A stretch of 17,583 bases of DNA, taken from the IMG/VR virus record IMGVR_UViG_2609459845_000009; one strand, 5' to 3'. Source of the DNA: a virus (taxonomy: Duplodnaviria > Heunggongvirae > Uroviricota > Caudoviricetes). Under the pieces are notes generated by a model. The model searched no databases. It worked only from the letters and a program-made list of their open reading frames with translations, and was not told the DNA's origin. The position numbers were made by a program, and so were the translations under genes. Positions 1 to 15,534 of this stretch are shown piece after piece (the first letter of the stretch is position 1; each line of letters starts with the position of its first letter).

Positions 1-939
1 TACGAATCGGTTGGCTGCAGCGATGCTGATCGGTTTGTTTATGTCTTCTCCAGGGAAAAGAACATCATTGTACGTTGTCATGGCCTTTTCGAGAAAAGGC
101 TTAATTTGTTCGAAGATTGGACGGCGGATAACATTACCCATCTTGCTATGCTCTTTCGGTACGGTCCATACGTTGTCCAGCAGGTCAAATTCTGTCTTTG
201 TTGCCAGCCTAAGCTCTGAGAGCCTCGCCCCCCACAGCATAAGCATCTGATGAAGGAGCTTATTTGACGTAGACGCACGGCTTCTTTCAATAGCAAGCCA
301 AATCTTAGCCAGTTCGTGATACGACAGTACCCGATCCCCTACCTCAGCGCGGGAGCCGAAGTCCCTTGGTTGGATGCTCATAATTGCGCAACTATCTATC
401 AACTGACGCCGCATGCACCAACTTATTGCTGATCTTAGTTGACTTAGCACCTGCCTTGCTCGGCGTGGATTATCTCTTTCTTCTTCGGTAAGCAGGTCAA
501 CCCATTGCTTAACCGTGATAGAAGATGCCGGACGATTAGGAAAGGCGTCATGCATGCGCTTCATAACCGTTGATCGGTAAAGTGCCTGGGTCTTTTCTCT
601 GAGAGTTGTAGAGACGTAGTTGTCGAACCAGTAGTCGAGACACTGGGCGACCGTCATGGAGTTCTCCACCTTCTCTTCAAAATAGGTGCGTGGATCCGTT
701 CCTGAGAAATAGAGCTTTCGCAAGTCAGCAGTGATCTGTCTGGCATCCTTCAAAGACAGGGATGGGTATCGACCAAGCCCAAGTCGATTAGGCTTGCCAT
801 GCCAGCGATAGCGGTACTGGAACTGGATGACCCCCTTCGGTGAAATTCGTACGCTGAGGCCATCGGCATCAGCCACTTCTTGTGGGCCCGAATATGGTTT
901 ACCATAAATAGTACGCAGTTTTGTGTCGCTTATAGCCAT
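1..939 (-). CDS. int: Tyrosine integrase, P4-like family, partial (C-terminal catalytic part lies beyond window start)
   Basis: Minus-strand ATG at 939-937; own translation gives MAISDTKLRTIYGKPYSGPQEVADADGLSVRISPKGVIQFQYRYRWHGKPNRLGLGRYPSLSLKDAR..., the DG-GL / RYR-GK / LGxYP-SL-AR pattern of the arm-binding N-terminus of P4-type integrases. Frame stays open to position 1 where checked (939-781 and 60-1). Missing from the supplied ORF track because it runs off the edge. Confidence 0.8.
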   Translation of the reverse strand, partial: MAISDTKLRTIYGKPYSGPQEVADADGLSVRISPKGVIQFQYRYRWHGKPNRLGLGRYPSLSLKDARQITADLRKLYFSGTDPRTYFEEKVENSMTVAQCLDYWFDNYVSTTLREKTQALYRSTVMKRMHDAFPNRPASSITVKQWVDLLTEEERDNPRRARQVLSQLRSAISWCMRRQLIDSCAIMSIQPRDFGSRAEVGDRVLSYHELAKIWLAIERSRASTSNKLLHQMLMLWGARLSELRLATKTEFDLLDNVWTVPKEHSKMGNVIRRPIFEQIKPFLEKAMTTYNDVLFPGEDINKPISIAAANRFV

Positions 940-947
940 AAATAATA

Positions 948-1243
948 TTTGGTACGCTCAAAAATAATGGTTTGGTACACATCTGGTACACAATATCACA
1001 TGGACAACAGCGCACAGTAAACAACTATATTTGACGTTCGTAGACATACTCAGGTTAAAAAAGGGTTGTTTTTCGAGTTATAACAGACAGTTAATTAACT
1101 ACAGTGGACAATGCTAGACAATGACAGGCACAGATAAACAACCTACCTTCCTCTTTCACGATTACGCGCAATACCCCTGAGAACCGCCATGAACAAGGGT
1201 TTCATGATTTGTGATTTTAGTTTGGTACGCAATTTGGTACACA
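948..1243. repeat. Five direct copies of TTGGTAC(A/G)C in two clusters (950-992 and 1223-1243) in the region upstream of int
   Basis: Read directly: TTTGGTACGC 948-957, TTTGGTACAC 971-980, CTGGTACACA 983-992, TTTGGTACGC 1221-1230, TTTGGTACAC 1234-1243, all same orientation. Confidence 0.5.
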
Positions 1244-1252: not shown

Positions 1253-1651
1253 TCACTTCAGCGGGTAGTCATCAAACTCACCAGTCCGCGCGTCATTGAT
1301 GATGTACGTCACCACCCCCTTCACTACGACTCGTTCCTCACAATCGTCGTCAGTTATCCATGTCTTTTTATCAGCGTGGTCCAGTTCTTCCAGGTGCACC
1401 TTTGGCAGCAGCCTGAGACGCAACAGCCGTATCTGGTCATTCAGATGACAAATCACCAGGCTTCCGTCTACCGGAGTCAGCGATGTGTCCATGACCAGCA
1501 GAGCCCCTCTCTTGATTCCTTCCCGCCATGATGTAGCAGCGTAACGGATGAAGAATGTCGCCGCTGGTTTTCGTATCAACTCCTTGTCGAGTGAGATCGC
1601 ATCCTCGTGGTAATCAGCAGCAGGGCTGGGAAACTGTGACATGGCAACCAT
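1253..1651 (-). CDS. UmuD'-like protein (LexA/UmuD S24 peptidase fold; pre-processed HumD-like form)
   Basis: 132-aa ORF; N-terminus MVAMSQFPSPAADY matches the FPSPAADY segment that follows the Cys24-Gly25 cleavage site of E. coli UmuD (recalled). Ser of the GDSM motif is retained (ATSW), but the catalytic Lys position appears to be Arg/Leu. GAGGTGA Shine-Dalgarno upstream. Confidence 0.7.
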   Translation of the reverse strand: MVAMSQFPSPAADYHEDAISLDKELIRKPAATFFIRYAATSWREGIKRGALLVMDTSLTPVDGSLVICHLNDQIRLLRLRLLPKVHLEELDHADKKTWITDDDCEERVVVKGVVTYIINDARTGEFDDYPLK

Positions 1652-1830: not shown

Positions 1831-3117
1831 GTGAAAAATAATTCCGCGCTGTTTGTTGGTTCTTTTTTTGAAAGTGACCAAAGCTCAAAAGTAAACCTGG
1901 CATTATCTTATGATGGAGAACGATTCGAAAAAATAAAGGCTCAATTCCTTTGGGCTATTGGTGGAACTGGAGAAGTTTTAGGGAGAGACCCATCAATTAT
2001 TTATCACAACGGTTGGTGGTTAATAGCCGTATCAGGATATACAGAAAACGTTTATGACGTCGATTGCTGGCGCTCACGTGATTTAACCGTGTGGGAACTG
2101 GTACGAATTAAGCTTGGCGATACGCCAGTCTGTGGGAAACGATTACCGGGTTCAGATCTGGTGACCACTGACGTGTGGGCTCCTGAATGGTTTGTTGATG
2201 ACGAAAATCTGTTCCTGATAGTCAGCCTGCGTTATTACAACGATCAGACTGACAGTAAAGGTGTAAATGTCAAAAGTTTTAAAACATTCTATTCTGTCTG
2301 TTCTGATGTTGAGAGACTGGAGTTTTACGATCCGGTTGCGGTAAATATCGAACCAAAAAACATGATTGATTCTGTTTTTTCCAGAATATTCCAGACGTAT
2401 TACCTGACAATAAAAGATGAAATCACCAAAAAAATTGAGGTGTATTGTTCAAATTGTTTCTCAGGACAGTTCACGAAATTATCAGTAATTCCGTTTACTC
2501 AGGCGGCGGAAGGCCCGGCGCTGGTTTATTTGCCGGACGGCACGATCAGAATCTATGCGGATTTTTTCGACACAAAAAAATGGACTTATTTTGTAGACAC
2601 GAAAGACTTCGTGACGTTCACGCCAGAGCGCCCCGTTTTGTTTGACGGCAGAATTAAGCGCGGGACTATTACAAATGTGCTGAACTGGCGCGATAGTGAA
2701 ACCGCATTGCAGCAACTGTCGGCGCTGTTCTGTGCAAACTCCGGGGATTTACAGCCAGGGAAAATCCACAAGCTCATTGATGTAGCGGGAACGAGCAATA
2801 TCAACGCTACTGATTTAATCTGGTGGCCTGAAACTGGACATTGTTATTTCACCGAGGGGTTATCCGGTAACGTGACAATCAATGCGCTGCCAACTGTTTA
2901 CCCGGACGGGAGTTCGTTTTATCTGATGGTCCGAAGCGCAACGCCGGGAGCTGGTGATCTGACGCTTAAACAGGCTGTCGGCGACCTGTACCACCCGGCT
3001 AATGGCATGGCGATATTTGATGCTGATTTGGTAGTGGCGGCTGGCGGGAACGCCGCATCACGTCTGTTTAGAATGGTGTGCTTTGATGGCCAGTTGTGGG
3101 TTGAGGGGGTTTTCTGA
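1831..3117 (+). CDS. Hypothetical 428-aa protein; N-terminal part resembles a GH43-type five-bladed beta-propeller glycoside hydrolase, C-terminal about 140 aa unassigned
   Basis: Long ORF in an AT-rich island; GTG start (first in-frame ATG is far inside). Motifs in GH43-like order: RDPSIIYHNGWWLIAVSGY, DVWAPEW, AEGPALVYLPDG. No signal peptide. Assignment is motif-level only. Confidence 0.5.
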   Translation: MKNNSALFVGSFFESDQSSKVNLALSYDGERFEKIKAQFLWAIGGTGEVLGRDPSIIYHNGWWLIAVSGYTENVYDVDCWRSRDLTVWELVRIKLGDTPVCGKRLPGSDLVTTDVWAPEWFVDDENLFLIVSLRYYNDQTDSKGVNVKSFKTFYSVCSDVERLEFYDPVAVNIEPKNMIDSVFSRIFQTYYLTIKDEITKKIEVYCSNCFSGQFTKLSVIPFTQAAEGPALVYLPDGTIRIYADFFDTKKWTYFVDTKDFVTFTPERPVLFDGRIKRGTITNVLNWRDSETALQQLSALFCANSGDLQPGKIHKLIDVAGTSNINATDLIWWPETGHCYFTEGLSGNVTINALPTVYPDGSSFYLMVRSATPGAGDLTLKQAVGDLYHPANGMAIFDADLVVAAGGNAASRLFRMVCFDGQLWVEGVF

Positions 3118-3151
3118 TATAATTGTGGCTCAATGAAAATTGGGCCACATA

Positions 3152-4213
3152 ATGAACAATAAAATATTTTCCGTCCAGTATCTTCGTGGAATAGCAGCGC
3201 TACTTGTGGTGCTGTACCATTTTTCTTTTTTTACTCCGCGCTGGTTTGCTAATTTATTTGCAAATGGCATGGTGGGCGTTGATATTTTTTTCATTATCTC
3301 TGGATTTATTATTTATTGGTCAACAATAAATCCTGAGGAATGCAGACCAACGGTATTTATTGTTAAACGATTCGCCAGAATATACCCGCTATTTTTTGTT
3401 GTGTTACTGGTTTCGTTGTTATTGCAACCTGCGCCTGCCACACAATTATCCAGGGGTTTTCTGGTTCTGCACAACGATTACACACTACCCGCTCCGGCGT
3501 TTGGATTTAATCTGCTACCGCCCGCGTGGACATTGACTTATGAAATATCGTTCTACGCTATTTTCTGTATGTGCGCTGCAATAACGACCCGGTATCGAGG
3601 TTCATTGTGTATCGCGCTGCTGATTGCAATCCCGGCAGTGCTACAGGTTGCGTTTAATGGAGGGTTGTCGTTTAACAGCACAGTCACCGCTATCCCTCCT
3701 GCTGACTCGCCGTTTTATGGTCTAATCAGGCTGGCAGGCTCAACGATGTTTTATGAGTTTGCGTTTGGGATTATGTCTGGAATGATATTTGAAAGGTTTA
3801 AATTAATTCTTCCTAACTTAACTGCTATTACTATAGCAATATTCGCATCGGCTTTATTTTTCTATTTTTTCTTCACATTCTCAGACCATACCAGCGGTAT
3901 AGAAGGAATGTTCTTTTTTGCTGCAATATTTTTTGTGGGCGTTTTGATGCTGGATAAATCAAAGGCGGGAGAGATAAAAGCATTATCAATTCTTGGCGAC
4001 CTGACATATAGCATTTATCTCTGTCATTGGCTGGTAATGCAGATGGTACAGAAATTTATTCCGATTGGGGAGTATAAGCACTGGGGCGTCCTTGTCCCCT
4101 GCATGCTTGTTGCTTCTCTGATGATGGCATTCGCAGCTAACCGGATAATTGAAAAACCGTTTATCCGTCTGGCCCGTTCGGCGCTGAAACGCCAGGAGAT
4201 TACGACGCGGTAG
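3152..4213 (+). CDS. Acyltransferase family 3 integral membrane protein (OafA/Oac-like O-acetyltransferase)
   Basis: N-terminus MNNKIFSVQYLRGIAALLVVLYHF is the acyltransferase-3 signature; many hydrophobic segments; 34 nt downstream of the 428-aa gene, same strand. ATG 3152 preferred over the track's TTG at 3140. Confidence 0.8.
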   Translation: MNNKIFSVQYLRGIAALLVVLYHFSFFTPRWFANLFANGMVGVDIFFIISGFIIYWSTINPEECRPTVFIVKRFARIYPLFFVVLLVSLLLQPAPATQLSRGFLVLHNDYTLPAPAFGFNLLPPAWTLTYEISFYAIFCMCAAITTRYRGSLCIALLIAIPAVLQVAFNGGLSFNSTVTAIPPADSPFYGLIRLAGSTMFYEFAFGIMSGMIFERFKLILPNLTAITIAIFASALFFYFFFTFSDHTSGIEGMFFFAAIFFVGVLMLDKSKAGEIKALSILGDLTYSIYLCHWLVMQMVQKFIPIGEYKHWGVLVPCMLVASLMMAFAANRIIEKPFIRLARSALKRQEITTR

Positions 4214-4664
4214 CAGGACGTGGCGGCCATTCAAGGCTGTCACTTAATATCGCTGCTTCATCATTAAACTTCATTTTCTTCAAGGCATCGATATGAGCAA
4301 GCCACTCTTTAAAGGTCGCCTTCTCTTCATCGGTGATGATCTCCAGAATGAGCTTAGAAGGCCAGTGTTCGCTGCTTATATATGCGTTAGCCGCAGAGAT
4401 TAACGCATCTCTCTTTGACTCGGCCTGTGCCAGTTTAAGCGCGAACAGTTCTTCTTTAGTTGGCTCGGGAATTTTTTCCCACGCAGGCATGCCGTCTGGC
4501 CCTGCAACCCTTCGCATGCCGTCTTTAACTGTTGGGTAAAATTCGGCGAAAACACCCATATCAACCGGCACAGCATCACTGTATTCGTCCGTCTTTAACA
4601 GAGAGCTTTCCTTGAAAACAAAAGCGTTGCTTTTGGCACTATATAAAAAATCTGAATCAGACAT
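4200..4664 (-). CDS. tfa: Tail fibre assembly protein (Tfa family)
   Basis: 154 aa; position directly downstream of a tail-fibre C-terminal fragment with TAATG stop/start overlap; C-terminal region (DEEKATFKEWLAHIDALKKM...DSLEWPPRP) resembles Tfa chaperones from memory. Confidence 0.7.
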   Translation of the reverse strand: MSDSDFLYSAKSNAFVFKESSLLKTDEYSDAVPVDMGVFAEFYPTVKDGMRRVAGPDGMPAWEKIPEPTKEELFALKLAQAESKRDALISAANAYISSEHWPSKLILEIITDEEKATFKEWLAHIDALKKMKFNDEAAILSDSLEWPPRPATAS

Positions 4665-5099
4665 TACGCTCTCCCGATAGCAATCCAGTTAAAAACTGTT
4701 GGCTGCGCAGTAAAGTTGTGGTCGGACGAACTCCAGGTTGCAGAACGAACATTAAAGCTCCCTGCGTTAACCTTTTCGGCACCATACACGGTTAAGAGTT
4801 GATAGATACCGCCGGAGGCTGTCCATCCAGAGACATGGCCTTCTACTGCAAATACCTGGTATGAGCTCATCGCCACACCCATATTCACATTATAAAATCC
4901 GTTACTGTCCGTTGTACCTACATCCATCTGGATGATCATATTGCCAGGAAGGCGAATAACCACACCAGACCCGGTTGTTGTATAGGTAAAGGATGACATA
5001 TCCGGAACTTGCCCGGTAGCCGGTATAAATCACACACTCTCCGACATACACATCATCCGGATGGGCAAACAGCTCTTGTTTGTCTGTGAGCTCTGCCAT
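4664..5099 (-). pseudogene. stf: Side tail fibre C-terminal remnant, truncated at 5' end and split by a frameshift (65-aa + 111-aa ORFs)
   Basis: Two overlapping minus-strand ORFs in different frames (5099-4902 and 4999-4664), ending at the tfa start; no upstream tail-fibre body or any other structural genes. Confidence 0.5.
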
Positions 5100-5456
5100 T
5101 GTTGGCTCCGTTTATCCGTTAAAAGGGATATCAGTTAAGTTATCCCGTGCAGGGTATAAGCCATTGTCGAGACCACTCATTGAATGGCCTCTGCAATAAC
5201 CGATGTCTTTCCATCAGTCCGCCACAACAAAGAATCTTTTTTGCCATAAGGCAGGAGGTTCATCTTTCAGTGGCTGCCAGTGTTATTTCCCCACTTACTG
5301 GCTTGGGTTGTTTTGTGGTACTGCCGTAACTGGTTGCCAAGAATAAATTCCGGTTTCATTATCAAGCCCACCCGTAGATGGGCTTTGTAATGGATAGCCG
5401 TTGCTCAGTTCTCGTAATGCTTTGATTTTTCCGATAACGCAGTTTTGCGTTTGCCA

Positions 5457-5978
5457 TCAGCACGCGATATCGAGAGTCAACTGCAGTTGCTCGCGCCAGT
5501 ACTCAACATTTGCTTCAATAACCGGCTTATCCCATCGCCAGCGAGCCATCTCTCTTGCCCCATTGCTGGCTTTTGATTTCCGGTCATCGCGAATGCGACA
5601 TGCTTGCTCATATTTCTGCTGCTCAGTCAGTTCACCGCGAAGCAGACTATCAATGTGCAGGTCGCACCACACAGCAAAACGAGCATCACACCAACGGGCA
5701 AATGCAACTGAAAGTTTTGGATGTAGCCACGTACCACCACCCCTGTCCTTTCGTGCCTTGCTGGTTTTTACATACCTCGATTGTGAGGGATGTAAAATTT
5801 GAGATTCTTTCCCGGTCAACGCTTCGTCTAAAGCACGAACGTATTCAAGCGTTTCTGCCAAACGCATCCAGTTATCAATGCGTTTTCCAAATCTCTCAGC
5901 AACACCTGTGACGTTGATCCAACCATCAGTGTTGAAACTGACAATTTCACCTTTGTAATTAAGTGGCACGATATTCAT
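5457..5978 (-). CDS. KilA-N domain protein
   Basis: 173 aa; DGWINVTGVAERFGKRIDNWMRL and GTWLHPKLSVAFARWCDARFAVWCD match the KilA-N (APSES-like) domain pattern. Confidence 0.6.
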   Translation of the reverse strand: MNIVPLNYKGEIVSFNTDGWINVTGVAERFGKRIDNWMRLAETLEYVRALDEALTGKESQILHPSQSRYVKTSKARKDRGGGTWLHPKLSVAFARWCDARFAVWCDLHIDSLLRGELTEQQKYEQACRIRDDRKSKASNGAREMARWRWDKPVIEANVEYWREQLQLTLDIAC

Positions 5979-6091
5979 AACGTTTACCTACCATTTGAAA
6001 TGAACCTTTGCCGCATAGGAAACCAGCCCACCGAGGCTCGCCAGCACTAACTGGTATCCTCAAAGGCCCATTCCAAAGGGGCAGGTTCGGT

Positions 6092-6147
6092 GTAAAAAAC
6101 ATGCGTTGCGGTACGCATTTATTGCAAAAAGCCCCGCATCGCGAGGC
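6092..6147 (-). terminator. Two tandem putative intrinsic terminators downstream of Rz
   Basis: On the minus-strand RNA: hairpin GCCUCGC-GAU-GCGGGGC (6131-6147, one mismatch) followed by UUUUU; then hairpin AUGCGU-ACCGCA-ACGCAU (6101-6118) followed by GUUUUUU. Confidence 0.5.
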
Positions 6148-6179
6148 TCATTAAATTGACTTTGTGATTTGCAAAAAAA

Positions 6180-6638
6180 TTATTTCAGGCATTGCGTCCT
6201 GATGTATTCCTGCAGGTAGTTAACCTGCGCGGTTATCTTGTCGATTCCACTTCGGAGACGGTAATAATTGAGTTCAGCATCTGCTGTAAGTCTTGGGCTT
6301 TCTCCATCGCCCATGCTGCTGGCTCCGGTCGTTGACTTTGCACAGGTGGCGGCGACTTGCAGGCGCTTACGACCAGCAGAAACATCAGCACGGAGACTTT
6401 CGATAGTCGCGTTAGCATCAGCAAGCTCCTTTGTATATCTGGCATCGAGTTCTGCTACATCACGTTGACGCTTCCGCATGTCAGCGATGGTGGCGTTCGC
6501 CTTCTCCAGTTCACTGGCCTTGTTATCGCGCTGCTCTTTGTAGGCGATTGCGTTATCACGGTAATGATTGACCGCCCACGACAGGCAGACGATGATGCAG
6601 ATAACCAGAGCGGAGATAATCGCGGTTAACCGACTCAT
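6180..6638 (-). CDS. Rz: Spanin inner-membrane subunit Rz (lambda Rz-like)
   Basis: [34 protein letters not shown]... closely resembles lambda Rz; internal ATG at 6638 chosen over the ORF-track start at 6767. Confidence 0.9.
6233..6418 (-). CDS. Rz1: Spanin outer-membrane lipoprotein subunit Rz1, embedded in Rz in the +1 frame
   Basis: Embedded ORF with lipobox LLVVSAC followed by a proline-rich stretch [12 protein letters not shown]; start at 6418 or 6385 is uncertain. Confidence 0.7.
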
Positions 6639-6726
6639 GACATCAACACCCCAACGGCCAGAAACCACGGCCACGCATCGTTGCCATTCAATGCGAGCAA
6701 CGCTGCCATGAAAAAGCAAATCATGC

Positions 6727-7230
6727 TCATTGTTGCCCCCACAAACAGACTTCACGCTCAATCTCACGACGGGTCATCAGCCCTTTCCATTGCTTACCGC
6801 CAGCGTATGTCCAGCGCCGTAGCTGATCACATGCGCCCTTGATATCGCCCTGGTTTATTTTGCGAAGAAGCGTCGATGTTCTGAAATTGCCTGTGCCCAC
6901 GTTATAGACGAACGAGTAAAGAGCGCCGCGCGTTGTTTCCGGTATATCGACTTTGATGTACGGGTTAATTTGTCTGGCGACCGTGGCAAGGTCTTTATTC
7001 AGGAGGGCTTTGCATTCTGCTTCGGTATACGTTTTACCGAGCATGATGTCTTTTCCGGTGTGTCCGTGGCATACAGTCCATACACCAACAATATCTTTGT
7101 ATGGTATGTAGCTGACACCTTCCAGACCATCGTTACCACTCGGTCCAGTGATTAACACAGATGCTATAGCAATAGCCCCGCCACTTATCGCCGCTATTAC
7201 GCTATTTCGTAGTGCCGGTGACATTGCCAT
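6727..7230 (-). CDS. R: SAR endolysin (phage lysozyme, T4-lysozyme/GH24 type; P21 R / RrrD-like)
   Basis: N-terminal Gly/Ala-rich weakly hydrophobic segment [16 protein letters not shown] (signal-anchor-release type) followed by [25 protein letters not shown] catalytic region. Confidence 0.9.
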
Positions 7231-7462
7231 TCAATCTGTCCTCGCGCTCTTTGCGCTTGTAGTACCAGTTGATGCCAAATGTGCCGACAGTACAAAGAAT
7301 ACCAATGATGACAGCCCAGTCATTCAGGGAGAGAATGCCACCCATCGCAGTCAGTCCTCCGAAGCTGTAACTGAACCATTCTCTGATTTTGTCCATAGCG
7401 CACGTTAATACCCGCTCGACGCTTTCTTTCAGGTATTGAAGGGATTGAGATGGGCTAAGCAT
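7202..7462 (-). CDS. S: Holin (probably pinholin partner of the SAR endolysin)
   Basis: 86-aa ORF with hydrophobic segments and a charged C-terminus ([10 protein letters not shown]); strong AGGAGG Shine-Dalgarno 6 nt before ATG 7462; overlaps the lysozyme start. Internal start at Met23 (7396) is possible. Confidence 0.7.
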
Positions 7463-7796
7463 TATTGGCCTCCTGCATCAGGAGAAAGACAATCATGGCG
7501 GCGCGGAGAGGTCTGGTATCAAATATTGGGCTTACGCCTTTTGCATCCACACACCATTCAGTTAACTGGTCTAAGATAGAAATCCTGTATTTCTCAATAA
7601 TCGGCCATGAAGCGCTCGGATCATTGCAGTAGTCAGGCAAATGATTTAATGGCTCAAAAGTTGTATAAGCATTTCCGTAATACCATTTGTTGGTGTTATT
7701 CCCTGATGTTTCCGGTTTACTTGCCCAAAGGCCTTTAAAAATTATGTCTCCTACCATTCTGTTAATTTCAAAATCACTTAACTGTGAATAATCCAT
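7455..7796 (-). CDS. Hypothetical protein immediately upstream of and overlapping the holin gene
   Basis: ORF with GAGG Shine-Dalgarno 8 nt before ATG 7796 (track start 7838 is GTG and would overlap ninE); no recognisable Q-antiterminator features. Confidence 0.45.
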
Positions 7797-7822
7797 TGTC
7801 ATTTCCTCGCACGATATCTTAG

Positions 7823-7975
7823 CTACCGGATATCCCACAGGTGAGCTGTGTAATTGAAGATTTTTACGTCAGATTCTTTTGGGATTGGCTTGCGTTTATT
7901 TCTGGAGCGTTTCGTTGGAAGGTATTTGCAGTTTTCGCAGATGATGTCGGTGAAACTTCGTCGCTGTCGCCTCAT
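7823..7975 (-). CDS. ninE: NinE
   Basis: [50 protein letters not shown] resembles lambda NinE; ATGA overlap with the upstream Dam reading frame. Confidence 0.75.
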
Positions 7976-8500
7976 GCCGCCCTCCTGACGCCCTGCCCGA
8001 TCGCCATCAATGCCGCTTTGGATACGGTAGTAAACATCCGTCGAGGACTGATGAACGGTCGCCAAATCAGCAGCATGGAGCCTTTGCTGTTTCCCTTCTT
8101 CTCCAGCCCTGTCGATGGTTCGATAAAATTAATCCGTCCATCAGTGATAATGCGAACTTCGTCGACACTCTCCAGAGCCTTGCTGAACCATCCGACTGAC
8201 ATATCCTCTGGCACAAGCATAACTACCGTCTGTCGCTGTTGTATGCACTGCTCAGCGGCTTTTTCCACCCACGGCCTGATATTGCTGTACGGTGGGTTAT
8301 TCCAGATTGCACCGTGGCTTATCCACTCAGAATTTAGCGCGTCGTCGGCCTCAGTTAACCAGTGAGCGCACAGAGCATTTTTTGTCGCTCGCTGCCGAAT
8401 CCAGCCAGAATCCAAACTCAATATCCAGTGCATCAAAAAGCCAAAGCGGCGTTTGCCAGCAGTCCTTGTCGTGTGCTGGCGTATTTGATTTGATAGTCAT
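7972..8500 (-). pseudogene. Phage-type DNA N6-adenine methyltransferase (Dam) interrupted by a frameshift in an A6 run
   Basis: N-terminal frame (8500-8351) has MTIKSNTPAHDKDCWQTPLWLFDALDIEFGFWLDSAASD; C-terminal frame (to 7972) has NALCAHWLTEADD...NNPPYS (motif IV). The frames meet at T6 on plus strand 8378-8383; removing one A restores a continuous protein. Confidence 0.7.
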
Positions 8501-8937
8501 GCAGCCCGATCTCCCCATCGCGCTTTCCATTCGAGAGCCAGTCGCGCTTCGTCTGACCACTTAACGCCACGCTCTGTACCGAATGCCTGTATAAGCTCTA
8601 ATAGCTCCGCAAATTCGTTTACACGCATCCTGCTGGTTGACTGGCCTATTACCACAAAGCCATTCCCGGCAAGGTTAGGAACAACATCCTGCTGCTTTAA
8701 TGCTGCGGTAAACACACACTTCCAGCTTTCTGCATCCAGCCAGCGACCATGCCATTCAACCTGACGAGAGACGTCACCAAGGCAAGCCCAAAGCTTTCGA
8801 TTCTGGTCTAAGCTGCGGTTGCGTTCCTGAATGGTTACTACGATTGGTTTGGTTGGGTCTGGAAGAATTTGCTGTACCGCGTGAATAGCGTTTTGCTGAT
8901 GTGCTGGAGATCGAATTTCAAAGGTTAGTTTTTTCAT
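8497..8937 (-). CDS. ninB: NinB (Orf-family recombination protein)
   Basis: MKKLTFEIRSPAHQQNAIHAVQQILPDPTKPIVVTIQERNRSLDQNRKLWACLGDVSRQVEWHGRWLD... matches lambda NinB from memory; ATG at 8937. Confidence 0.9.
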   Translation of the reverse strand: MKKLTFEIRSPAHQQNAIHAVQQILPDPTKPIVVTIQERNRSLDQNRKLWACLGDVSRQVEWHGRWLDAESWKCVFTAALKQQDVVPNLAGNGFVVIGQSTSRMRVNEFAELLELIQAFGTERGVKWSDEARLALEWKARWGDRAA

Positions 8938-8953
8938 GACTTCCCTCTCCCCC

Positions 8954-8985
8954 AAATAAAAAGGCCTGCGATTACCAGCAGGCCT
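8954..8985 (-). terminator. Intrinsic terminator between ren and ninB (tR2 position)
   Basis: Minus-strand hairpin AGGCCUGC-UGGUAAUC-GCAGGCCU (plus 8962-8985) followed by UUUUUAUUU. Confidence 0.6.
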
Positions 8986-9010
8986 GTTATTAGCTCAGTG
9001 ATGTAGATGG

Positions 9011-9301
9011 TCATCTTTTAACTCCATATACTGCCAATACCCGTTTCATCGCGGCACTCTGGCGACACTCCTTAAAAATCAGGTTCGTGCTCATCTTTCC
9101 TTCCCGTTCTTCCCTGGTAGCAAATCGGTAATACACCGTTCGCCAGACCTTACCTTCGATAACCAGAAGACCTGCCCGTGCCATTTTAGCCGCGGCCTGA
9201 TTTATGCTGGTTACTGTTGCGCCTGTTAGCGCGGCAACGTCCGGCGCACAGAAGCTATTATGCGTCCCCAGGTAATGAATAATTGCCTCTTTGCCCGTCA
9301 T
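9011..9301 (-). CDS. ren: Ren
   Basis: 96-aa MTGKEAIIHYLGTHNSFCAPDVAALTGATVTSINQAAAKMARAGLLVIEGKVWRTVYYRFATREEREGK... matches lambda Ren from memory. Confidence 0.85.
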   Translation of the reverse strand: MTGKEAIIHYLGTHNSFCAPDVAALTGATVTSINQAAAKMARAGLLVIEGKVWRTVYYRFATREEREGKMSTNLIFKECRQSAAMKRVLAVYGVKR

Positions 9302-9999
9302 ACACTTGCTCCTTTCAGTCCGAACTTAGCTTTGATTTCTGCGATCTTCGCCAGAGCCTGTGCACGATTTAGAGGTCTACCGCCCATGACAGGAAGTTGT
9401 TTTACTGGTTCAGGGATCGCCTCACCACGGTTAATTCTCGCAGTCATATGGACAAGCTCATCTGCGGCCTTACGGCGTAATTCCGCATCAGTAAGCGCAT
9501 TGGCCCGCATGTTCTGATACAGGTTGGTAACCAGCCAGTAGTGCGCGTTTGATTTCCACGGATAAGACTCCGCATCCGGATACAGGCCTCGCTTCCGGCA
9601 ATACTCGTAAACCATATCAACCAGCTCGCTGACGTTTGGCAGTCCGGCGGTAACGGATGCTTCTTCCCGGCACCATGCAACAAACTGCCCGGGTGATGGC
9701 AGAAATGGTCGATTCTGCCGACGGGCTACGCGCATTCCTGCGTTAACCTGTTCCATCGTGGTGATCCCGTTTTCCCGAAAAGCCAGAACCCACTGGCGAC
9801 GGATTTCGTTCACTTCGTTCTGGTCACGGTTAGCCAGGCTCGCCGGGAAAGTTGCCAGTAACTGGCTGAACACACCGTTGATGATCTGCGCTACCTGCTG
9901 TACCTGCGGCTTTTCGTCGTACTGTTCCGGCATGTTGTTGGCGATCCGACGCATCTGCTCACGGTCAAAGTTAACCATCTGTGCGGCGATGTTTTTCAT
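9298..9999 (-). CDS. P: Replication protein P (DnaB helicase loader)
   Basis: 233 aa, MKNIAAQMVNFDREQMRRIANNMPEQYDEKPQVQQVAQIINGVFSQLLATFPASLANRDQNEVNEIRRQW... matches lambda P; ATGA overlap with O stop. Confidence 0.95.
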   Translation of the reverse strand: MKNIAAQMVNFDREQMRRIANNMPEQYDEKPQVQQVAQIINGVFSQLLATFPASLANRDQNEVNEIRRQWVLAFRENGITTMEQVNAGMRVARRQNRPFLPSPGQFVAWCREEASVTAGLPNVSELVDMVYEYCRKRGLYPDAESYPWKSNAHYWLVTNLYQNMRANALTDAELRRKAADELVHMTARINRGEAIPEPVKQLPVMGGRPLNRAQALAKIAEIKAKFGLKGASV

Positions 10000-10895
10000 A
10001 GATCCACCCCGTAAATCCAGTCTGTGTTTGTCAGGTCGAGTTTTGGTTTGCTGGCTGTCATGCCTGCCTGTTGCTTGTTACGGTTGATTTCGAGTTGGGT
10101 CCACTTATCGCGGAGTTTGGCCGGGCTCAGCACGTTACCGGACCAGAAGTTGTCCTGGCATGCCCAGCGGAACAGCACGCACATGTCACGGTGGTTACGT
10201 CCGTCACGTTCACGCATCAGGCGGATATCGTTAGCCCACCCAGCAAAATTCGGTTTTCTGGCTGATGGTGCGATAGTCTTCACCATGTCAAACATCCACT
10301 CTGCGGCGGTCAGGTCTTCTGCTGTCCCCCACTTGCTGCCGCTCTGAATTGCAGCATCCGGTTTCACCACAGAAAGGTCGTTTTCTGGCTGGTCAGAGGA
10401 TTCGCCAGAATTCTCTGACGAATAATCTTTTCTTTTTTCTTTTGTAATAGTGTCTTTTGTGTCCCCCTGTTTTGAGGGATAGCAATCCCCCAATTTGAGG
10501 GATGTTTTATCCCTCGTTTTAGGGGATTTTCCCTCGTTTTGAGGGATGCACCATTCTGAGATGTTTTTATTTGGTCCAAACATGCCGCCTTGCTGCTTGA
10601 TAATATTCATTCTGACGAGTTCTAACTTGGCTTCATTGCACCGTTTGACGGGTAACTTTGTAATCTCGCTAAGTTGAGAATCGGTGATTCTGTCCATTGG
10701 TTTATTCCACCCATAGGTTTTACGCAGAATGGCAAGCAGCACTTTAAACTGTCGCTTGGTCAGATCTGCGCCCGAATAAGCCTCAAGCAGCATATTTGAT
10801 AGTCTGGCGTAACCATCATCGAGATCTGCCACATTACGCTCCTGTCCGGCAAAGTTACCTCTGCCGAAGTTGAGTATTTTTGCTGTATTTGTCAT
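9996..10895 (-). CDS. O: Replication initiator O
   Basis: 299 aa, MTNTAKILNFGRGNFAGQERNVADLDDGYARLSNMLLEAYSGADLTKRQFKVLLAILRKTYGWNKP... matches lambda O; contains the iteron array. Confidence 0.95.
   Translation of the reverse strand: MTNTAKILNFGRGNFAGQERNVADLDDGYARLSNMLLEAYSGADLTKRQFKVLLAILRKTYGWNKPMDRITDSQLSEITKLPVKRCNEAKLELVRMNIIKQQGGMFGPNKNISEWCIPQNEGKSPKTRDKTSLKLGDCYPSKQGDTKDTITKEKRKDYSSENSGESSDQPENDLSVVKPDAAIQSGSKWGTAEDLTAAEWMFDMVKTIAPSARKPNFAGWANDIRLMRERDGRNHRDMCVLFRWACQDNFWSGNVLSPAKLRDKWTQLEINRNKQQAGMTASKPKLDLTNTDWIYGVDL
10420..10547. repeat. ori-lambda-type origin: four ~19-bp iterons plus adjacent AT-rich segment inside O
   Basis: Repeated TCCCTCAAA-type units on the minus strand (plus strand: tttgagggat...tttgagggatg...atccctcgttttagggga...ccctcgttttgagggatg) at about 10460-10547, flanked by AT-rich 10421-10450. 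Confidence 0.8.
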
Positions 10896-10905
10896 AATGA
10901 CTCCT

Positions 10906-10982
10906 GTTGATAGATCCAGTAATGACCTCAGAACTCCATCTGGATTTGTTCAGAACGCTCGGTTGCCGCCGGGCGTTTTTTA
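10906..10982 (+). ncRNA. oop: oop antisense RNA
   Basis: GTTGATAGATCCAGTAATGACCTCAGAACTCCATCTGGATTTGTTCAGAACGCTCGGTTGCCGCCGGGCGTTTTTTATT, antisense to the cII 3' end, ending in a GC hairpin plus T-run; matches lambda oop from memory. Confidence 0.7.
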
Positions 10983-11221
10983 TTGGTGAGAATCGCAGCA
11001 ACTTGTCGCGCCAATCGAGCCATGTCGTCGTCAACGACCCCCCATTCAAGAACAGCAAGCAGCATTGAGAACTTTGGAATCCAGTCCCTCTTCCACCTGC
11101 TGATCTGCGACTTATCAACGCCCACAGCTTCCGCTGTCTTCTCAGTTCCAAGCATTGCGATTTTGTTAAGCAACGCACTCTCGATTCGTAGAGCCTCGTT
11201 GCGTTTGTTTGCACGAACCAT
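10928..11221 (-). CDS. cII: Transcriptional activator CII
   Basis: MVRANKRNEALRIESALLNKIAMLGTEKTAEAVGVDKSQISRWKRDWIPKFSMLLAVLEWGVVDDDMARLARQVAAILTNKKRPAATERSEQIQMEF matches lambda CII; ATG at 11221. Confidence 0.95.
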   Translation of the reverse strand: MVRANKRNEALRIESALLNKIAMLGTEKTAEAVGVDKSQISRWKRDWIPKFSMLLAVLEWGVVDDDMARLARQVAAILTNKKRPAATERSEQIQMEF

Positions 11222-11300
11222 ATGTAAGTATTTCCTTAGATAACAATTGATTGAATGTATGCAAATAAATGCATACACCATAGGTGTGGTTTAATTTGAT

Positions 11301-11332
11301 GCCCTTTTTCAGGGCTGGGATGTGTAAGAGCG
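11301..11332 (-). promoter_or_regulatory. nutR (boxA CGCTCTTACACA, boxB GCCCTGAAAAAGGGC)
   Basis: Reverse complement of 11301-11332 gives the boxA and boxB hairpin between cro and cII. Confidence 0.75.
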
Positions 11333-11340
11333 GGAATGTC

Positions 11341-12696
<1,356 letters not shown>

Positions 12697-12746
12697 TCCC
12701 CACCTCAATCTCGATAACCAAAAAACAAACTATTTTCCGTTTAAAA

Positions 12747-12815
12747 ACAATGGAGTTTGTTTTTCATGCCCCTTTCTTACAATATTTCTTGTTTACAACA
12801 TACAATCTTTTTTGT
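12747..12815. promoter_or_regulatory. 434-type left operator OL sites with pL
   Basis: ACAA-N6-TTGT 14-mers at 12747-12760 (ACAATGGAGTTTGT), 12779-12792 (ACAATATTTCTTGT) and 12802-12815 (ACAATCTTTTTTGT), upstream of nutL and N. Confidence 0.75.
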
Positions 12816-12860
12816 AATTTTAAACCATCAGCAGGACGCACTGACCACCATTGAAGGTGA

Positions 12861-12891
12861 TGCTCTTAAAAATTAAGCCCTGAAGAAGGGC
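12861..12891 (+). promoter_or_regulatory. nutL (boxA TGCTCTTAA, boxB GCCCTGAAGAAGGGC)
   Basis: Read directly at 12861-12869 and 12877-12891. Confidence 0.8.
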
Positions 12892-13049
12892 AGCATTCAA
12901 AGCAGAAGGCTTTGGGGTGTGTGATACGAAACGAAGCATTGGCCGGAAGTGCGAATCCGGATTAGCTGCAAATGAGCCAATCGTGGGGTGTTTTCGTTCA
13001 GGACTACGACTCACACACACCACCAAAGCTAACTGACAAGAGAATCCAG

Positions 13050-13373
13050 ATGGATGCACAAACACGCCGCCGCGAACGTCGCGCAGAGAAACAGGCTCAA
13101 TGGAAAGCAGCAAATCCCCTGTTGGTTGGGGTAAGCGCAAAACCAGTTAACCGCCCTATTCTCTCGCTGAATCGCAAACCGAAATCACGAGTAGAAAGCG
13201 CACTGAATCCGATAGACCTTACGGTGCTGGCTGAATACCACGAACAGATTGAAAGCAACCTGCAACGTATTGAGCGCAAGAATCTTCGAGTTTGGTATAG
13301 CAAGCCAAGTGAGTTCGGTATAACTTGTCAAGGAAGACAAAAGGTTAAAGGGAAATCCATTCCATTGGCATGA
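13050..13373 (+). CDS. N: Antiterminator N
   Basis: MDAQTRRRERRAEKQAQWKAANPLLVGVSAKPVNRPILSLNRKPKSRVESALNPIDLTVLAEYHEQIESNLQRIERKN... matches lambda N, including the arginine-rich boxB-binding motif; ATG 13050. Confidence 0.95.
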   Translation: MDAQTRRRERRAEKQAQWKAANPLLVGVSAKPVNRPILSLNRKPKSRVESALNPIDLTVLAEYHEQIESNLQRIERKNLRVWYSKPSEFGITCQGRQKVKGKSIPLA

Positions 13374-13523
13374 GGTACGTAATGAAGAAAATTGATTACA
13401 AGTCCATACCAAAACCAATAGACTCAGCATCAGAGCGAAAAAAAACACAAAAAAGAGGCTGAAAAATTAGCAAATTATATCAGTTTTATTAGAAACAATG
13501 CTCACGGCGATGGCGACAGGAAG

Positions 13524-14252: not shown

Positions 14253-14276
14253 CCCGCTCAGGCGGGTTTCATTTTC
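14251..14276 (+). terminator. Putative intrinsic terminator after the 242-aa gene
   Basis: AACCCGC-TCAG-GCGGGTT hairpin followed by TCATTTT. Confidence 0.45.
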
Positions 14277-14394
14277 ACGCAAACAACAGAATAAACACTG
14301 CACTGTGTATTCATTCCAACGAGTGAATACACGGAGCAATGTCGCTCGTAACTAAACAGGAGTCGACTTGTTCTGATTATTGGAAATCTTCTTT

Positions 14395-14421
14395 GCCCTC
14401 CAGTGTGAGGGCGATTTTTTA
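14395..14421 (+). terminator. Intrinsic terminator or attenuator upstream of ea10
   Basis: GCCCTC-CAGTGT-GAGGGC hairpin followed by GATTTTTT. Confidence 0.6.
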
Positions 14422-14440
14422 TCTGTGAGGATATGAACAG

Positions 14441-14809: not shown

Positions 14810-14881
14810 GCGCGGCGTTACCGCATACCAATAACGCTTCACTCGAGGCGTTTTTCGTTATGTATAAATAAGGAGCACACC

Positions 14882-15529: not shown

Positions 15530-15534
15530 AACGG

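What the first reader, a model, noticed from the sequence alone, without database searches (positions are those of the whole stretch)
4664..5456. Deletion scar where head and tail genes should be
Reading leftward on the minus strand, the late region goes from Rz and a KilA-N gene straight to a 5'-truncated, frameshifted tail-fibre C-terminal fragment and tfa. No terminase, portal, capsid or tail genes exist in the window. The roughly 350-bp non-coding stretch 5100-5456 is the probable junction. The element is therefore a defective prophage that keeps immunity, recombination, replication, lysis and cargo functions.
Basis: partly seen in the sequence, partly recalled or inferred. Interest (0 to 1): 0.4.

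Follow-up and report, generated by a model that had tools for sequence, protein, structure and literature searches.

The report
Deletion scar in defective lambdoid prophage
A single deletion of about 20 kb removed every head and tail gene from a lambda-like prophage of E. coli. It fused the first 28 codons of a packaging-module HNH endonuclease gene to the last 118 codons of the tail-fibre gene, which makes this an ordinary defective prophage whose break lies at 5016-5018, not in the 5100-5456 spacer.

Summary

- **Source:** the window is E. coli contig JNRH01000072.1.
- **Spacer 5100-5456:** on the minus strand it follows Rz and KilA-N. It is 88-98% conserved at the same position in intact lambda-, P22-, HK97- and SEN34-type phages, so it is normal late-region DNA and not a junction.
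- **True junction:** window 5099->5016 is the first 84 nt of the HNH endonuclease gene that opens the HNH-TerS-TerL-portal module. It is fused at a 3-nt microhomology (TAC, 5016-5018) to nt 378-732 of a 732-nt myovirus tail-fibre gene. That fragment is 100% identical to intact copies and is followed by an intact tfa.
- **No fibre frameshift:** the apparent frameshift is the out-of-frame HNH::fibre fusion. There is no IS remnant.
- **Deletion size:** in intact relatives (E. coli E308, C3728) the two breakpoints lie 19.8-20.3 kb apart and span 26 head, tail and packaging genes.
- **Whole element:** a sister contig shows 19,894 bp from att to att, with no virion genes.
- **Recurrence:** the identical junction occurs in 8 contigs from 6 assemblies.
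- **Further decay:** a second 2,509-bp deletion removed Q and two tRNA genes.

The mechanism is illegitimate recombination. Interest is low.

The parts
1..939 (-). 5' 939 nt (313 of 392 codons) of the element's own tyrosine integrase, cut by the contig end
   Evidence: 100% identical over window 1-1166 to the integrase next to sbcB in sister contig L034. Carries Arm-DNA-bind_3 and Phage_integrase Pfam hits. Annotated as a tyrosine recombinase next to sbcB in CEC15.
1137..1166 (.). attP-type junction: int-side arm joined to the HumD-side arm. The identical core TTTCACGATTACG is at 1154-1166, and 1137-1153 is imperfectly shared.
   Evidence: Three-way comparison with attR (L034) and attL (L008). 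Among all fetched loci the attP 46-mer occurs only in this contig.
1253..1651 (-). HumD/UmuD'-like S24 peptidase gene (cargo, next to att)
   Evidence: NCBIfam HumD equivalog at 9.6e-51 and PHROG UmuD-like. Present at the same place in intact relatives L003 and L005-L010.
1831..3117 (+). 428-aa GH43-like beta-propeller protein (cargo)
   Evidence: Weak, below-cutoff Pfam GH43 and GH32N hits and PHROG 18920. Present in intact relatives.
3152..4213 (+). Acyltransferase-3 family gene, O-acetyltransferase-like (cargo)
   Evidence: Pfam Acyl_transf_3 at 4.6e-34 and PHROG O-acetyltransferase at 1e-56. Called as 353 aa in L028.
4200..4664 (-). Intact tail-fibre assembly (chaperone) gene tfa, 154 aa
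   Evidence: Pfam Caudo_TAP at 2.4e-14. The exact same protein is encoded downstream of full-length fibres in intact myovirus prophages L003, L005, L007, L009 and L010; in L006 it is also present but no fibre gene was called upstream.
4664..5018 (-). 3' fragment of the tail-fibre gene: nt 378-732 of 732. This is the last base of codon 126, then codons 127-243 and the stop, covering the variable C-terminal (receptor-binding) part.
   Evidence: 0 mismatches to the L009 fibre gene over 355 nt. Intact protein P0109 is 243 aa, and PHROG tail-fibre families match its residues 1-125, which are missing here.
5016..5018 (.). Deletion junction: a 3-nt microhomology (TAC on the minus strand) shared by both parents, inside the imperfect match ACCGG(C)TAC (5016-5024).
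   Evidence: Three-way alignments and base-by-base mapping. The identical 36-mer junction occurs in L004, L008/L025, L024 and L026-L030.
5016..5099 (-). First 84 nt (28 codons) of the HNH endonuclease gene that opens the HNH-TerS-TerL-portal module
   Evidence: 99-95% identity to the start of annotated HNH endonuclease genes in 14 complete E. coli genomes. One mismatch in 84 nt to E308. Synteny in E308 and C3728.
4902..5099 (-). Chimeric 65-codon ORF: HNH codons 1-28, then 37 codons of out-of-frame fibre sequence. This is the source of the apparent frameshift.
   Evidence: Translations. No Pfam, NCBIfam or PHROG hit.
5100..5456 (-). Conserved late-region intergenic DNA between KilA-N and the first packaging-module gene, ending in the SD GGAG upstream of ATG 5099. 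It is not a scar.
   Evidence: 98% identity to intact lambda-like (L016, L017) and P22-like (L001) prophages, and 88-98% with modular gaps in L011, L014, L015, L018-L023 and HK544. The minus-strand RNA folds with z = -5.4. No Rfam family matches.
5457..5978 (-). KilA-N domain gene (173 aa), a common gene between Rz and the packaging genes
   Evidence: Pfam KilA-N at 8.2e-22. The exact protein is listed in 12,336 blocks of the collection. In the 10 places shown it always lies between Rz and a terminase gene.
6180..6638 (-). Rz spanin gene (152 aa)
   Evidence: Pfam Phage_lysis at 1.4e-40. This exact variant was found on 17 contigs. All seven of the eight places shown that extend beyond KilA-N carry the deletion; the eighth, L031, is a 1,274-bp contig that ends inside KilA-N.
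6727..7224 (-). Endolysin gene (165 aa)
   Evidence: Pfam Phage_lysozyme on the called gene.
7202..7462 (-). In-frame NinF'(22 codons)::holin(codons 4-67) fusion ORF. The junction of the second deletion (2,509 bp) is at 7396-7397, with microhomology TA.
   Evidence: Collinearity break against Q-containing relatives L004, L024, L027 and L030. Three-way alignment and translations. tRNA-Asn and tRNA-Thr are present in L004 and absent from the window.

Best explanation
The window carries a defective lambdoid prophage that integrates into the 5' end of sbcB.

**Inferred ancestor.** It was a temperate phage of about 42 kb of the SEN34/E308 type. These have lambda-like early, nin and lysis regions, then KilA-N, an HNH endonuclease, TerS, TerL, a DUF1073 portal, head genes, a contractile tail and baseplate, the tail fibre, tfa, and cargo genes next to att.

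**The deletion.** One illegitimate-recombination event joined nt 84 of the HNH gene to nt 378 of the fibre gene, at a 3-nt microhomology (TAC) set within the imperfect match ACCGG(C)TAC. The fibre side lies in a 10-bp palindrome, CCGGTACCGG. About 20 kb was removed: 26 complete packaging, head and tail genes plus parts of the two end genes.

**Consequences.**
- A 65-codon out-of-frame HNH::fibre ORF.
- A promoterless fibre C-terminal fragment.
- An intact tfa.
- An element that cannot build virions.

**Shown here:** both parental sequences, the exact breakpoint, the absence of inserted DNA, the recurrence of the same junction in 8 contigs, and the absence of virion genes from att to att.

**Inferred:** that both breakpoints lay in one prophage, the mechanism (replication slippage or end-joining at microhomology), and the loss of particle production.

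**Later decay.** In a sub-lineage that includes this window, a second 2,509-bp deletion (microhomology TA) removed ninF-3' to Q, the Q-holin intergenic region with two tRNA genes, and the first holin start codon.
For: **Junction**
- Window 5099->5016 equals HNH nt 1-84 of E308, with 1 mismatch.
- Window 5018->4664 equals fibre nt 378-732 of L009, with 0 mismatches.
- The two overlap by 3 nt and there is no extra DNA.
- The HNH identification rests on 99-95% matches to annotated HNH endonuclease genes and on Pfam/PHROG HNH hits for the full-length E308 protein.

**Synteny in intact relatives**
- E308 and C3728 show Rz, KilA-N or Rha, HNH, TerS, TerL, portal, head, sheath, tube, baseplate, fibre and tfa in that order. 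The breakpoints map 20,332 and 19,841 bp apart.
- The tail module upstream of the intact fibre in L009 and L003 is 91-97% identical to E308's.
- L009 and L003 carry the identical tfa and cargo, and the same attL, next to dacD.
- Cultured relatives of the deleted block are vB_EcoM-606R2 (42,743 bp) and SEN34.

**Recurrence and completeness**
- The same junction is in CP170296.1 (a complete chromosome) and 7 other contigs, from 6 assemblies in all.
- The whole element is 19,894 bp without virion genes.

**No IS or long repeat at the junction**.

Against: - The immediate intact parent, with the same early and lysis region and an undeleted structural block at sbcB, was not recovered. The seven contigs that carry this exact Rz variant and reach beyond KilA-N are already deleted.
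- The upstream parts of the L003 and L009 contigs could not be fetched. A deletion spanning two tandem prophages of the same family therefore cannot be excluded.
- Three nucleotides of perfect microhomology is little more than chance would give, so the mechanistic label rests mainly on the absence of any alternative signature.
- Inability to make particles is inferred from gene content only.
Confidence: 0.88

Rival explanations
1. One reading: the deletion endpoint lies in the roughly 350-bp non-coding stretch 5100-5456, and the fibre fragment is the lambdoid phage's own frameshifted tail fibre.
For: The stretch has no ORF of 40 aa or more on the minus strand. It lies between the last clearly intact late gene and the fragments.
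Against: - The stretch is 88-98% identical and syntenic in intact lambda-, P22-, HK97- and E308-type phages.
- Homology to intact genomes continues 84 nt further, into the HNH gene.
- The fibre fragment has 0 mismatches or indels against the intact gene.
Confidence: 0.02
2. The junction arose by illegitimate recombination between two different co-resident prophages. An example is a tandem pair at sbcB: fibre-tfa-cargo from the dacD-proximal phage, HNH-KilA-N-lysis-early-int from the distal one. The deletion would then be about 60 kb instead of 20 kb.
For: - The fibre tip, tfa and cargo cassette is shared by two unrelated tail types at this site: Mu-like in L005, L006, L007 and L010, and E308-like in L003 and L009. 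The cassette therefore does not identify the parent by itself.
- attP-type junctions, which imply tandem or excised copies, do occur at this locus.
- The true parent was not recovered.
Against: - The HNH-TerS-TerL module and the L009-type tail co-occur in single prophages (E308, C3728).
- L009-type prophages occupy the same att site with identical tfa and cargo.
- One 20-kb deletion therefore suffices, whereas this rival needs an extra tandem lysogen of the same family.
Confidence: 0.08
3. The junction is an assembly artefact, that is, a chimeric contig.
For: - The source assembly contains redundant contigs. Window 6317-17583 recurs at 99.97-100% identity in JNRH01000028.1, JNRH01000036.1 and JNRH01000066.1, each with a different flank.
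- All of them diverge exactly at the window's last base.
Against: The identical junction is present in six independent assemblies, including the complete chromosome CP170296.1. The 111-aa ORF it creates is deposited under many independent E. coli protein accessions.
Confidence: 0.01
4. The element is not merely decaying. It is a helper-dependent mini-lambdoid (satellite-like) that still excises and replicates, and is packaged by a SEN34/E308-type helper phage.
For: - The contig carries an attP-type junction, int arm joined to HumD arm, while attL occurs in another contig of the same assembly. This implies excised circles or tandem copies.
- The int, xis-like, O, P, cI and cro genes are intact.
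- The conserved DNA upstream of HNH is retained.
- At 19.9 kb the element is close to half a 42.7-kb helper genome.
Against: - No cos or pac site has been identified, and TerS, the usual location of pac, is deleted.
- No helper-manipulation genes appear among the Pfam hits.
- All copies found are about 99.9% identical and, wherever the left flank was seen, lie beside dacD. That fits vertical inheritance in one lineage, not horizontal spread.
- Q is deleted in this sub-lineage and dam is disrupted.
Confidence: 0.04

Closest known systems
SEN34/E308-type lambdoid myoviruses: prophages of E. coli E308 and C3728, Escherichia phage vB_EcoM-606R2, Salmonella phage SEN34
   Same: - Lambda-like early, nin and lysis regions.
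- The spacer and the start of the HNH gene are 92-99% identical.
- The fibre's conserved N-terminal domain and the tail module of the L009-type relatives are 91-97% identical to E308's.
- The fibre-tfa pair is the last late operon unit before the prophage end.
   Different: - The window lacks the 19.8-20.3 kb from HNH nt 85 to fibre nt 377, which holds 26 genes.
- It has a different fibre tip and tfa, and extra cargo (acyltransferase, GH43-like, HumD).
- It integrates at sbcB with a different integrase, whereas E308 and C3728 use argW and IntS.
Cryptic lambdoid prophages of E. coli K-12 such as DLP12, Rac and Qin (from my own knowledge, not checked here), and 'grounded'/incomplete prophages in general (PMC6379469, title and abstract only; PMC7744054)
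   Same: - An att-bounded lambdoid remnant that lost its packaging, head and tail genes by deletion.
- It keeps the integrase, regulatory and recombination genes, some lysis genes, tail-fibre/tfa remnants and cargo.
- This matches the reported preferential loss of terminase, portal, capsid and plate genes and the enrichment of tail-fibre and integrase genes.
   Different: - This one is young and clean. There are only two deletions with exactly definable endpoints, no IS elements, an intact immunity and replication region, and an attP junction suggesting it can still excise.
- The K-12 remnants are more heavily rearranged (own knowledge).
HK97 gp74-type HNH endonuclease and terminase packaging modules
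   Same: An HNH endonuclease gene sits directly beside the terminase genes, at the boundary between the lysis and packaging regions. HK544 has KilA-N followed by a gp74-like HNH gene. GP74 stimulates cos cleavage by TerL (PMC9410871).
   Different: - Only 28 codons survive here, before the HNH catalytic domain. PHROG and Pfam HNH matches start at about residue 20 of the 165-aa E308 protein.
- The E308-type HNH is not the HK97 gp74 sequence.
- No function can remain.
Phage satellites (P4, PICI-like elements)
   Same: A small (19.9 kb) integrase-bearing element without virion genes, with evidence of an attP form.
   Different: The gene content is an ordinary lambdoid early and lysis set. There are no capsid-size redirection, helper-derepression or dedicated packaging genes among the Pfam hits. 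All copies look vertically inherited.

Membership tests
Defective (cryptic) lambdoid prophage | Bounded by att sites and carries a phage integrase | tested here: met
   Sister contig JMGU01000058.1 has attL (sbcB 5' end | HumD arm) and attR (int arm | sbcB) 19,894 bp apart, with a 392-aa tyrosine integrase. The window carries the corresponding attP and 313 codons of the same integrase at 100% identity.
Defective (cryptic) lambdoid prophage | Lambda-type early gene order: exo-bet-gam-kil-cIII-N-cI-cro-cII-O-P-nin | tested here: met
   Pfam hits on the called genes of L028 (the window itself) and of L025 and L034: YqaJ, RecT, Gam, Lambda_Kil, Lambda_CIII, N36, HTH_3+Peptidase_S24, HTH_3, Phage_CII, Phage_rep_O, Phage_lambda_P, NinB, NinE and NinX. 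The Rfam lambda cIII thermoregulator lies at 14869-14927.
Defective (cryptic) lambdoid prophage | Lacks a complete set of packaging, head and tail genes | tested here: met
   Between Rz/KilA-N and att there are only an 84-nt HNH remnant, a 355-nt fibre remnant, tfa and three cargo genes. No terminase, portal, capsid, sheath, tube or baseplate Pfam hit occurs anywhere from att to att.
Defective (cryptic) lambdoid prophage | Fails to produce infectious particles on induction | not testable with these tools
   This needs an induction experiment. It is inferred from gene content only.
SEN34/E308-type lambdoid myovirus (as the parent lineage) | The HNH-TerS-TerL-DUF1073 portal module follows the lysis cassette | tested here: inconclusive
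   Only the first 84 nt of HNH survive, at the syntenic position and with the same upstream spacer. TerS, TerL and portal are absent by deletion, so the module's former presence is inferred from E308 and C3728 synteny.
SEN34/E308-type lambdoid myovirus (as the parent lineage) | Fibre (conserved N-terminal anchor, variable tip) plus tfa as the last late genes, downstream of a DUF3383 sheath / baseplate-J tail module | tested here: inconclusive
   The fibre tip and tfa are 100% identical to those of L009 and L003, whose upstream tail module is 91-97% identical to E308's. The same tip-tfa cassette also sits on Mu-like tails (L005, L007, L010), so the cassette alone does not prove the tail type.
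IS-mediated or site-specific deletion | An IS remnant, inverted repeats or a recombinase site at the junction | tested here: not met
   The two parental sequences abut with a 3-nt overlap and no foreign bases. The repeat search of 4500-5600 found only short chance-level repeats.
Phage satellite (P4/PICI-like) | Helper-exploitation genes and a helper-compatible packaging signal | tested here: not met
   No such genes appear among the Pfam or PHROG hits. Presence of a cos or pac site could not be tested.

The most novel reading that the evidence does not exclude
The 19.9-kb element may still be a working mobile unit and not just a fossil. It would excise (an attP junction is present in this contig), replicate from its intact O/P origin, and be packaged, perhaps as a dimer of about 40 kb, by a co-resident SEN34/E308-type helper phage. 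The packaging signal would lie in the conserved, strongly structured DNA retained just upstream of the HNH remnant (5100-5456). That would make it a lambdoid 'mini-phage' satellite created by a single deletion.
Probability: 0.04. Interest if true: 0.5.

Novelty: new member of a known kind. Interest (0 to 1): 0.13.

Why it matters
The biological significance is small. Loss of packaging, head and tail genes, with retention of integrase, fibre/tfa remnants and cargo, is the textbook route by which prophages become cryptic (PMC7744054).

The case has three practical uses:
- **A clean worked example.** Both parental sequences are known to the base, and the deletion uses only 3 nt of microhomology beside a 10-bp palindrome. 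A second, nested deletion dates the order of decay: the structural genes went first, Q and the holin start later.
- **An annotation warning.** The 65-aa and 111-aa ORFs here are deletion by-products, although they are deposited as 'hypothetical proteins'.
- **A possible lineage marker.** The junction 36-mer could serve as a marker for the E. coli lineage that carries the element.

Tried and rejected
- **Recovering the intact parent.** Exact-protein look-ups with the window's KilA-N returned only unrelated lambda-like and P22-like prophages. Look-ups with its Rz returned only already-deleted copies. A homology search with the E308 HNH protein did not return a usable full-length representative from the L009 or L003 contigs. 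I ran no further search on a two-step walk upstream of L009.
- **Neighbouring prophage.** I first read the integrase at 1-939 as belonging to a neighbouring tandem prophage. One search showed it is 100% identical to the element's own integrase, so that reading was dropped.
- **30-bp att core.** I first called 1137-1166 a 30-bp core. One search showed only 13 bp (1154-1166) are identical between attL and attR.
- **Megablast of 4190-5120.** Against phages it found nothing. Against complete RefSeq E. coli genomes it found only the HNH and terS starts, so the fibre tip and tfa are absent from those 5,426 genomes.
- **RNA in the spacer.** Rfam found no family in 4900-6200. Homologues of the 5100-5456 spacer are too similar (88-98%) for a covariation test.
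- **Literature.** A search for the assembly accessions found nothing.
- **Promoter and terminator scan** of 4600-6300 gave promoter-like hits at background level and a few terminator-like hairpins, with nothing placed at the junction itself.
Full report
**What the window is.** The window is 100% identical to contig JNRH01000072.1 (17,583 bp, the same length as the window) of assembly GCA_000704585.1. Source names for the identical proteins say Escherichia coli, in strains with names such as 3-073-06_S3_C1 and 2-474-04_S3_C1. From 5111 to 17583 it is a lambdoid early, nin and lysis region, about 98% identical to prophages in thousands of E. coli genomes. Its gene map follows.

| Window position | Strand | Feature |
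|---|---|---|
| 1-939 | - | integrase, cut by the contig end |
| 1137-1166 | . | att junction |
| 1253-1651 | - | HumD-like gene |
| 1831-3117 | + | GH43-like gene |
| 3152-4213 | + | acyltransferase-3 |
| 4200-4664 | - | tfa |
| 4664-5018 | - | fibre fragment |
| 5016-5099 | - | HNH fragment |
| 5100-5456 | - | spacer |
| 5457-5978 | - | KilA-N |
| 6180-6638 | - | Rz |
| 6727-7224 | - | endolysin |
| 7202-7462 | - | holin fusion |

After these come ninX, ninE, a split dam, ninB, P, O, cII, a cro-like gene, a cI-like gene (11663-12295, +), N, cIII, kil, gam, bet and exo.

**Checking the observation.** Three details are wrong.
- *The spacer is not a scar.* The 357 bp at 5100-5456 occur at the same place in intact elements, between the KilA-N stop and the first gene of the packaging module.
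  - They are 98% identical in lambda-like prophages with Nu1/A terminase (L016, L017) and in a P22-like prophage (L001).
  - They are 88-98% identical, with modular insertions or deletions at 5357/5344, 5200/5202 and 5111/5091, in P22-like, HK97-like (HK544) and E308-type elements.
- *Homology to intact genomes continues past the spacer.* Window 5099->5016 is the start codon and first 28 codons of a gene annotated 'HNH endonuclease' in 14 complete E. coli genomes, at 99-95% identity. There is one mismatch in 84 nt against E308.
- *The fibre fragment has no frameshift.* Window 5018->4664 equals nt 378-732 of the 732-nt fibre gene of L009, with no mismatch and no gap. The two overlapping ORFs that suggested a frameshift are the chimera (4902-5099: HNH codons 1-28, then 37 out-of-frame codons) and an internal-ATG ORF in the fibre frame (4664-4999).

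**The junction.** On the minus strand the three sequences read as follows.

| Sequence | Read |
|---|---|
| HNH parent | ...GATTTATACCGGCTAC/ATAAATAAGCG... |
| Fibre parent | ...GACATCGGCACCGGTAC/CGGGCAAGTTCC... |
| Window | ...GATTTATACCGGCTACCGGGCAAGTTCC... |

- The three bases TAC (window 5016-5018) could come from either parent. With one extra C the similarity extends to ACCGG(C)TAC (5016-5024).
- The fibre side lies in the 10-bp palindrome CCGGTACCGG.
- No foreign bases, IS ends or significant repeats flank the junction.
- The same 36-mer junction occurs in eight contigs from six assemblies, including the complete chromosome CP170296.1. It is therefore neither chance nor an assembly artefact.

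**What was lost.**
- *Intact synteny.* In E. coli E308 and C3728 the HNH gene is followed by terS, terL, a DUF1073 portal, head morphogenesis and capsid genes, a DUF3383 sheath, a DUF3277 tube, chaperones, a tape-measure/transglycosylase, baseplate genes, the fibre and tfa.
- *Size.* Mapping the two breakpoints onto these genomes gives 20,332 bp (E308) and 19,841 bp (C3728). That span holds 26 complete genes.
- *Link to the window's fibre.* The exact tfa protein of the window is encoded in intact prophages at the same chromosomal site, with the same cargo and attL beside dacD. These are of two tail types:
  - Mu-like (L005, L007 and L010, with a 227-aa fibre; L006, where no fibre gene was called);
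  - E308-like (L003 and L009, with a 243-aa fibre).
- *Tail module.* The L009 and L003 tail module is 91-97% identical to E308's, up to fibre nt 401.
- *Conclusion.* Because the HNH-TerS-TerL module and this tail type occur together in single prophages, the simplest history is one deletion inside an L009-type prophage. That step is inferred. I could not fetch the DNA upstream of L009 or L003, and every sufficiently long contig shown that carries this Rz variant is already deleted.
- *Cultured relatives* of the lost block are Escherichia phage vB_EcoM-606R2 (42,743 bp; 96.5% identity over 87%) and Salmonella phage SEN34.
- *Surviving fibre part.* It is the variable tip. PHROG tail-fibre families match residues 1-125 of the intact protein, and that part is gone.

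**The whole element.**
- *Extent.* Sister contig JMGU01000058.1 is 99.95-99.98% identical to the window over the shared parts. It shows the complete element between dacD and sbcB: attL, HumD ... exo, ea22-like, ea8.5, an xis-like gene, int, attR. The length is 19,894 bp, with no virion genes.
- *Integration site.* The element integrates in the 5' end of sbcB. attR supplies a new start and 15 codons (MTGTDKQPTFLFHDY) in place of MMNDGKQQSTFLFHDY.
- *attP junction.* Window 1-1166 is 100% identical to the int-attR arm of that contig but is joined to the HumD arm. The contig therefore carries an attP-type junction, while attL occurs in another contig of the same assembly.
- *What that implies.* It points to excised circles or a tandem duplicate in the sequenced culture.
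- *Caveat.* The assembly is redundant. Window 6317-17583 recurs at 99.97-100% in three other contigs with different flanks, and all diverge exactly at the window's end.

**Further decay.** Q-containing relatives are L004, L024, L027 and L030. Relative to them, the window and part of the lineage lack 2,509 bp.
- The left breakpoint is in ninF codon 22, the right breakpoint is in holin codon 3, and the microhomology is TA at 7396-7397.
- This removes the 3' part of ninF, four nin genes, the Q antiterminator, the Q-holin intergenic region with tRNA-Asn and tRNA-Thr, and the first holin start.
- It creates an in-frame NinF'::holin ORF. The second holin Met is kept.
- dam is split into two ORFs (49 and 98 aa, against 175 aa in L015 and L021).
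- The structural-gene deletion is shared by all copies and the Q deletion by a subset, so the structural deletion came first.

**Mechanism.**
- *Shown:* the two parental sequences, the exact breakpoint, 3 nt of shared sequence, no inserted DNA and no mobile-element signature.
- *Inferred:* an illegitimate recombination event, by replication slippage or microhomology-assisted joining, possibly favoured by the palindrome.
- *Outcome:* the event is followed by vertical inheritance in one E. coli lineage. All copies are about 99.9% identical, and every copy whose left flank was seen lies beside dacD.
- *Expression:* the fusion is out of frame, so no hybrid protein with either function is expected. 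The HNH remnant ends at about the point where the HNH-domain matches begin (for the role of HNH partners of terminase see PMC9410871).

**Comparison with what is known, and verdict.** This is a standard defective lambdoid prophage. The pattern is loss of terminase, portal, capsid and plate genes with retention of integrase and fibre-related genes. Surveys of incomplete prophages report exactly this pattern (PMC7744054). It passes the testable membership criteria for a cryptic lambdoid prophage. It is not a satellite by gene content. The specific element has no description that I could find, so I rate it a new member of a known kind. The only less ordinary possibility is that the element still excises and is mobilised by an E308-type helper. 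It rests on the attP junction alone, and I give it about 4%.

Noticed in passing
window 1-1166: The left end is the element's own integrase arm (100% identical to the int-attR arm of sister contig L034) joined to the HumD arm. That is an attP-type junction, so the contig is a circular permutation of the 19,894-bp element with 2,311 bp missing. attL is present in another contig of the same assembly. This implies excised circles or a tandem duplicate, unless it is an assembly-graph artefact.
   Followed up: partly
window 7396-7397 (ORF 7202-7462, minus strand): A second deletion of 2,509 bp, relative to L004, L024, L027 and L030. It runs from ninF codon 22 to holin codon 3 with microhomology TA. 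It removes four nin genes, the Q antiterminator, the Q-holin intergenic region with tRNA-Asn and tRNA-Thr, and the first Met of the holin. It creates an in-frame NinF'(22 aa)::holin fusion.
   Followed up: yes
window 5100-5456: This conserved 'non-coding' spacer of lambdoid late regions folds much better than shuffled controls: minus-strand RNA -113 kcal/mol, z = -5.4; plus strand z = -3.2. It has mosaic breakpoints at 5357/5344, 5200/5202 (where gp49 is inserted in other phages) and 5111/5091. No Rfam family matches, and homologues are too similar for a covariation test. Its function is unknown.
   Followed up: partly
window 6317-17583; loci L036, L037, L040: The source assembly (GCA_000704585.1) holds four contigs that share this stretch at 99.97-100% identity but have different outer flanks: the dsdC side, the ybhC/lambda-att side with a different integrase, dacD, and this attP. 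All diverge exactly at window position 17583. This looks like redundant threading of a repeat by the assembler, so contig-level linkage in this assembly should be treated with care.
   Followed up: partly
window 4200-5018; loci L003, L005-L007, L009, L010: The fibre tip (from about fibre nt 250 onward), tfa and the acyltransferase/GH43-like/HumD cargo form one cassette. It is about 99-100% identical on two unrelated contractile-tail modules, Mu-like and E308-like, at the same dacD/sbcB site. This is a clear case of tail-fibre-tip module exchange.
   Followed up: partly
window 7972-8500 (minus strand): The phage dam methyltransferase gene is split into two ORFs (49 and 98 aa) instead of the 175-aa gene of L015 and L021. 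There is one indel over the aligned 1.7 kb, so it is probably a frameshifted pseudogene.
   Followed up: partly
window 1121-1180; L034 14699-14790: Integration is inside the 5' end of sbcB. The int arm supplies a replacement start codon and 15 codons (MTGTDKQPTFLFHDY against the native MMNDGKQQSTFLFHDY), so sbcB stays intact at attR. In the window's attP form this start runs into the HumD arm and stops after 19 codons.
   Followed up: partly
window 1831-4213: The cargo pair on the opposite strand from the late genes comprises a 428-aa GH43-like beta-propeller protein (only weak Pfam hits, plus a PHROG 'tail protein' hit) and an acyltransferase-3 (PHROG O-acetyltransferase, 1e-56). This may be a surface-polysaccharide modification cassette. 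Megablast found no match to the tfa and fibre-tip part of the cassette (window 4190-5015) in the 5,426 complete RefSeq E. coli genomes; the two cargo genes themselves were not searched separately.
   Followed up: no
window 14869-14927: A full-length match to the Rfam lambda cIII thermoregulator element (88.5 bits, gathering score 50), as expected upstream of cIII.
   Followed up: no
protein P0043 (another contig, not in the window): A 224-aa protein that fuses a complete KilA-N protein, near-identical to the window's, to the C-terminal about 55 residues of the E308-type HNH endonuclease. This is an independent deletion in the same KilA-N to HNH interval in another genome.
   Followed up: no
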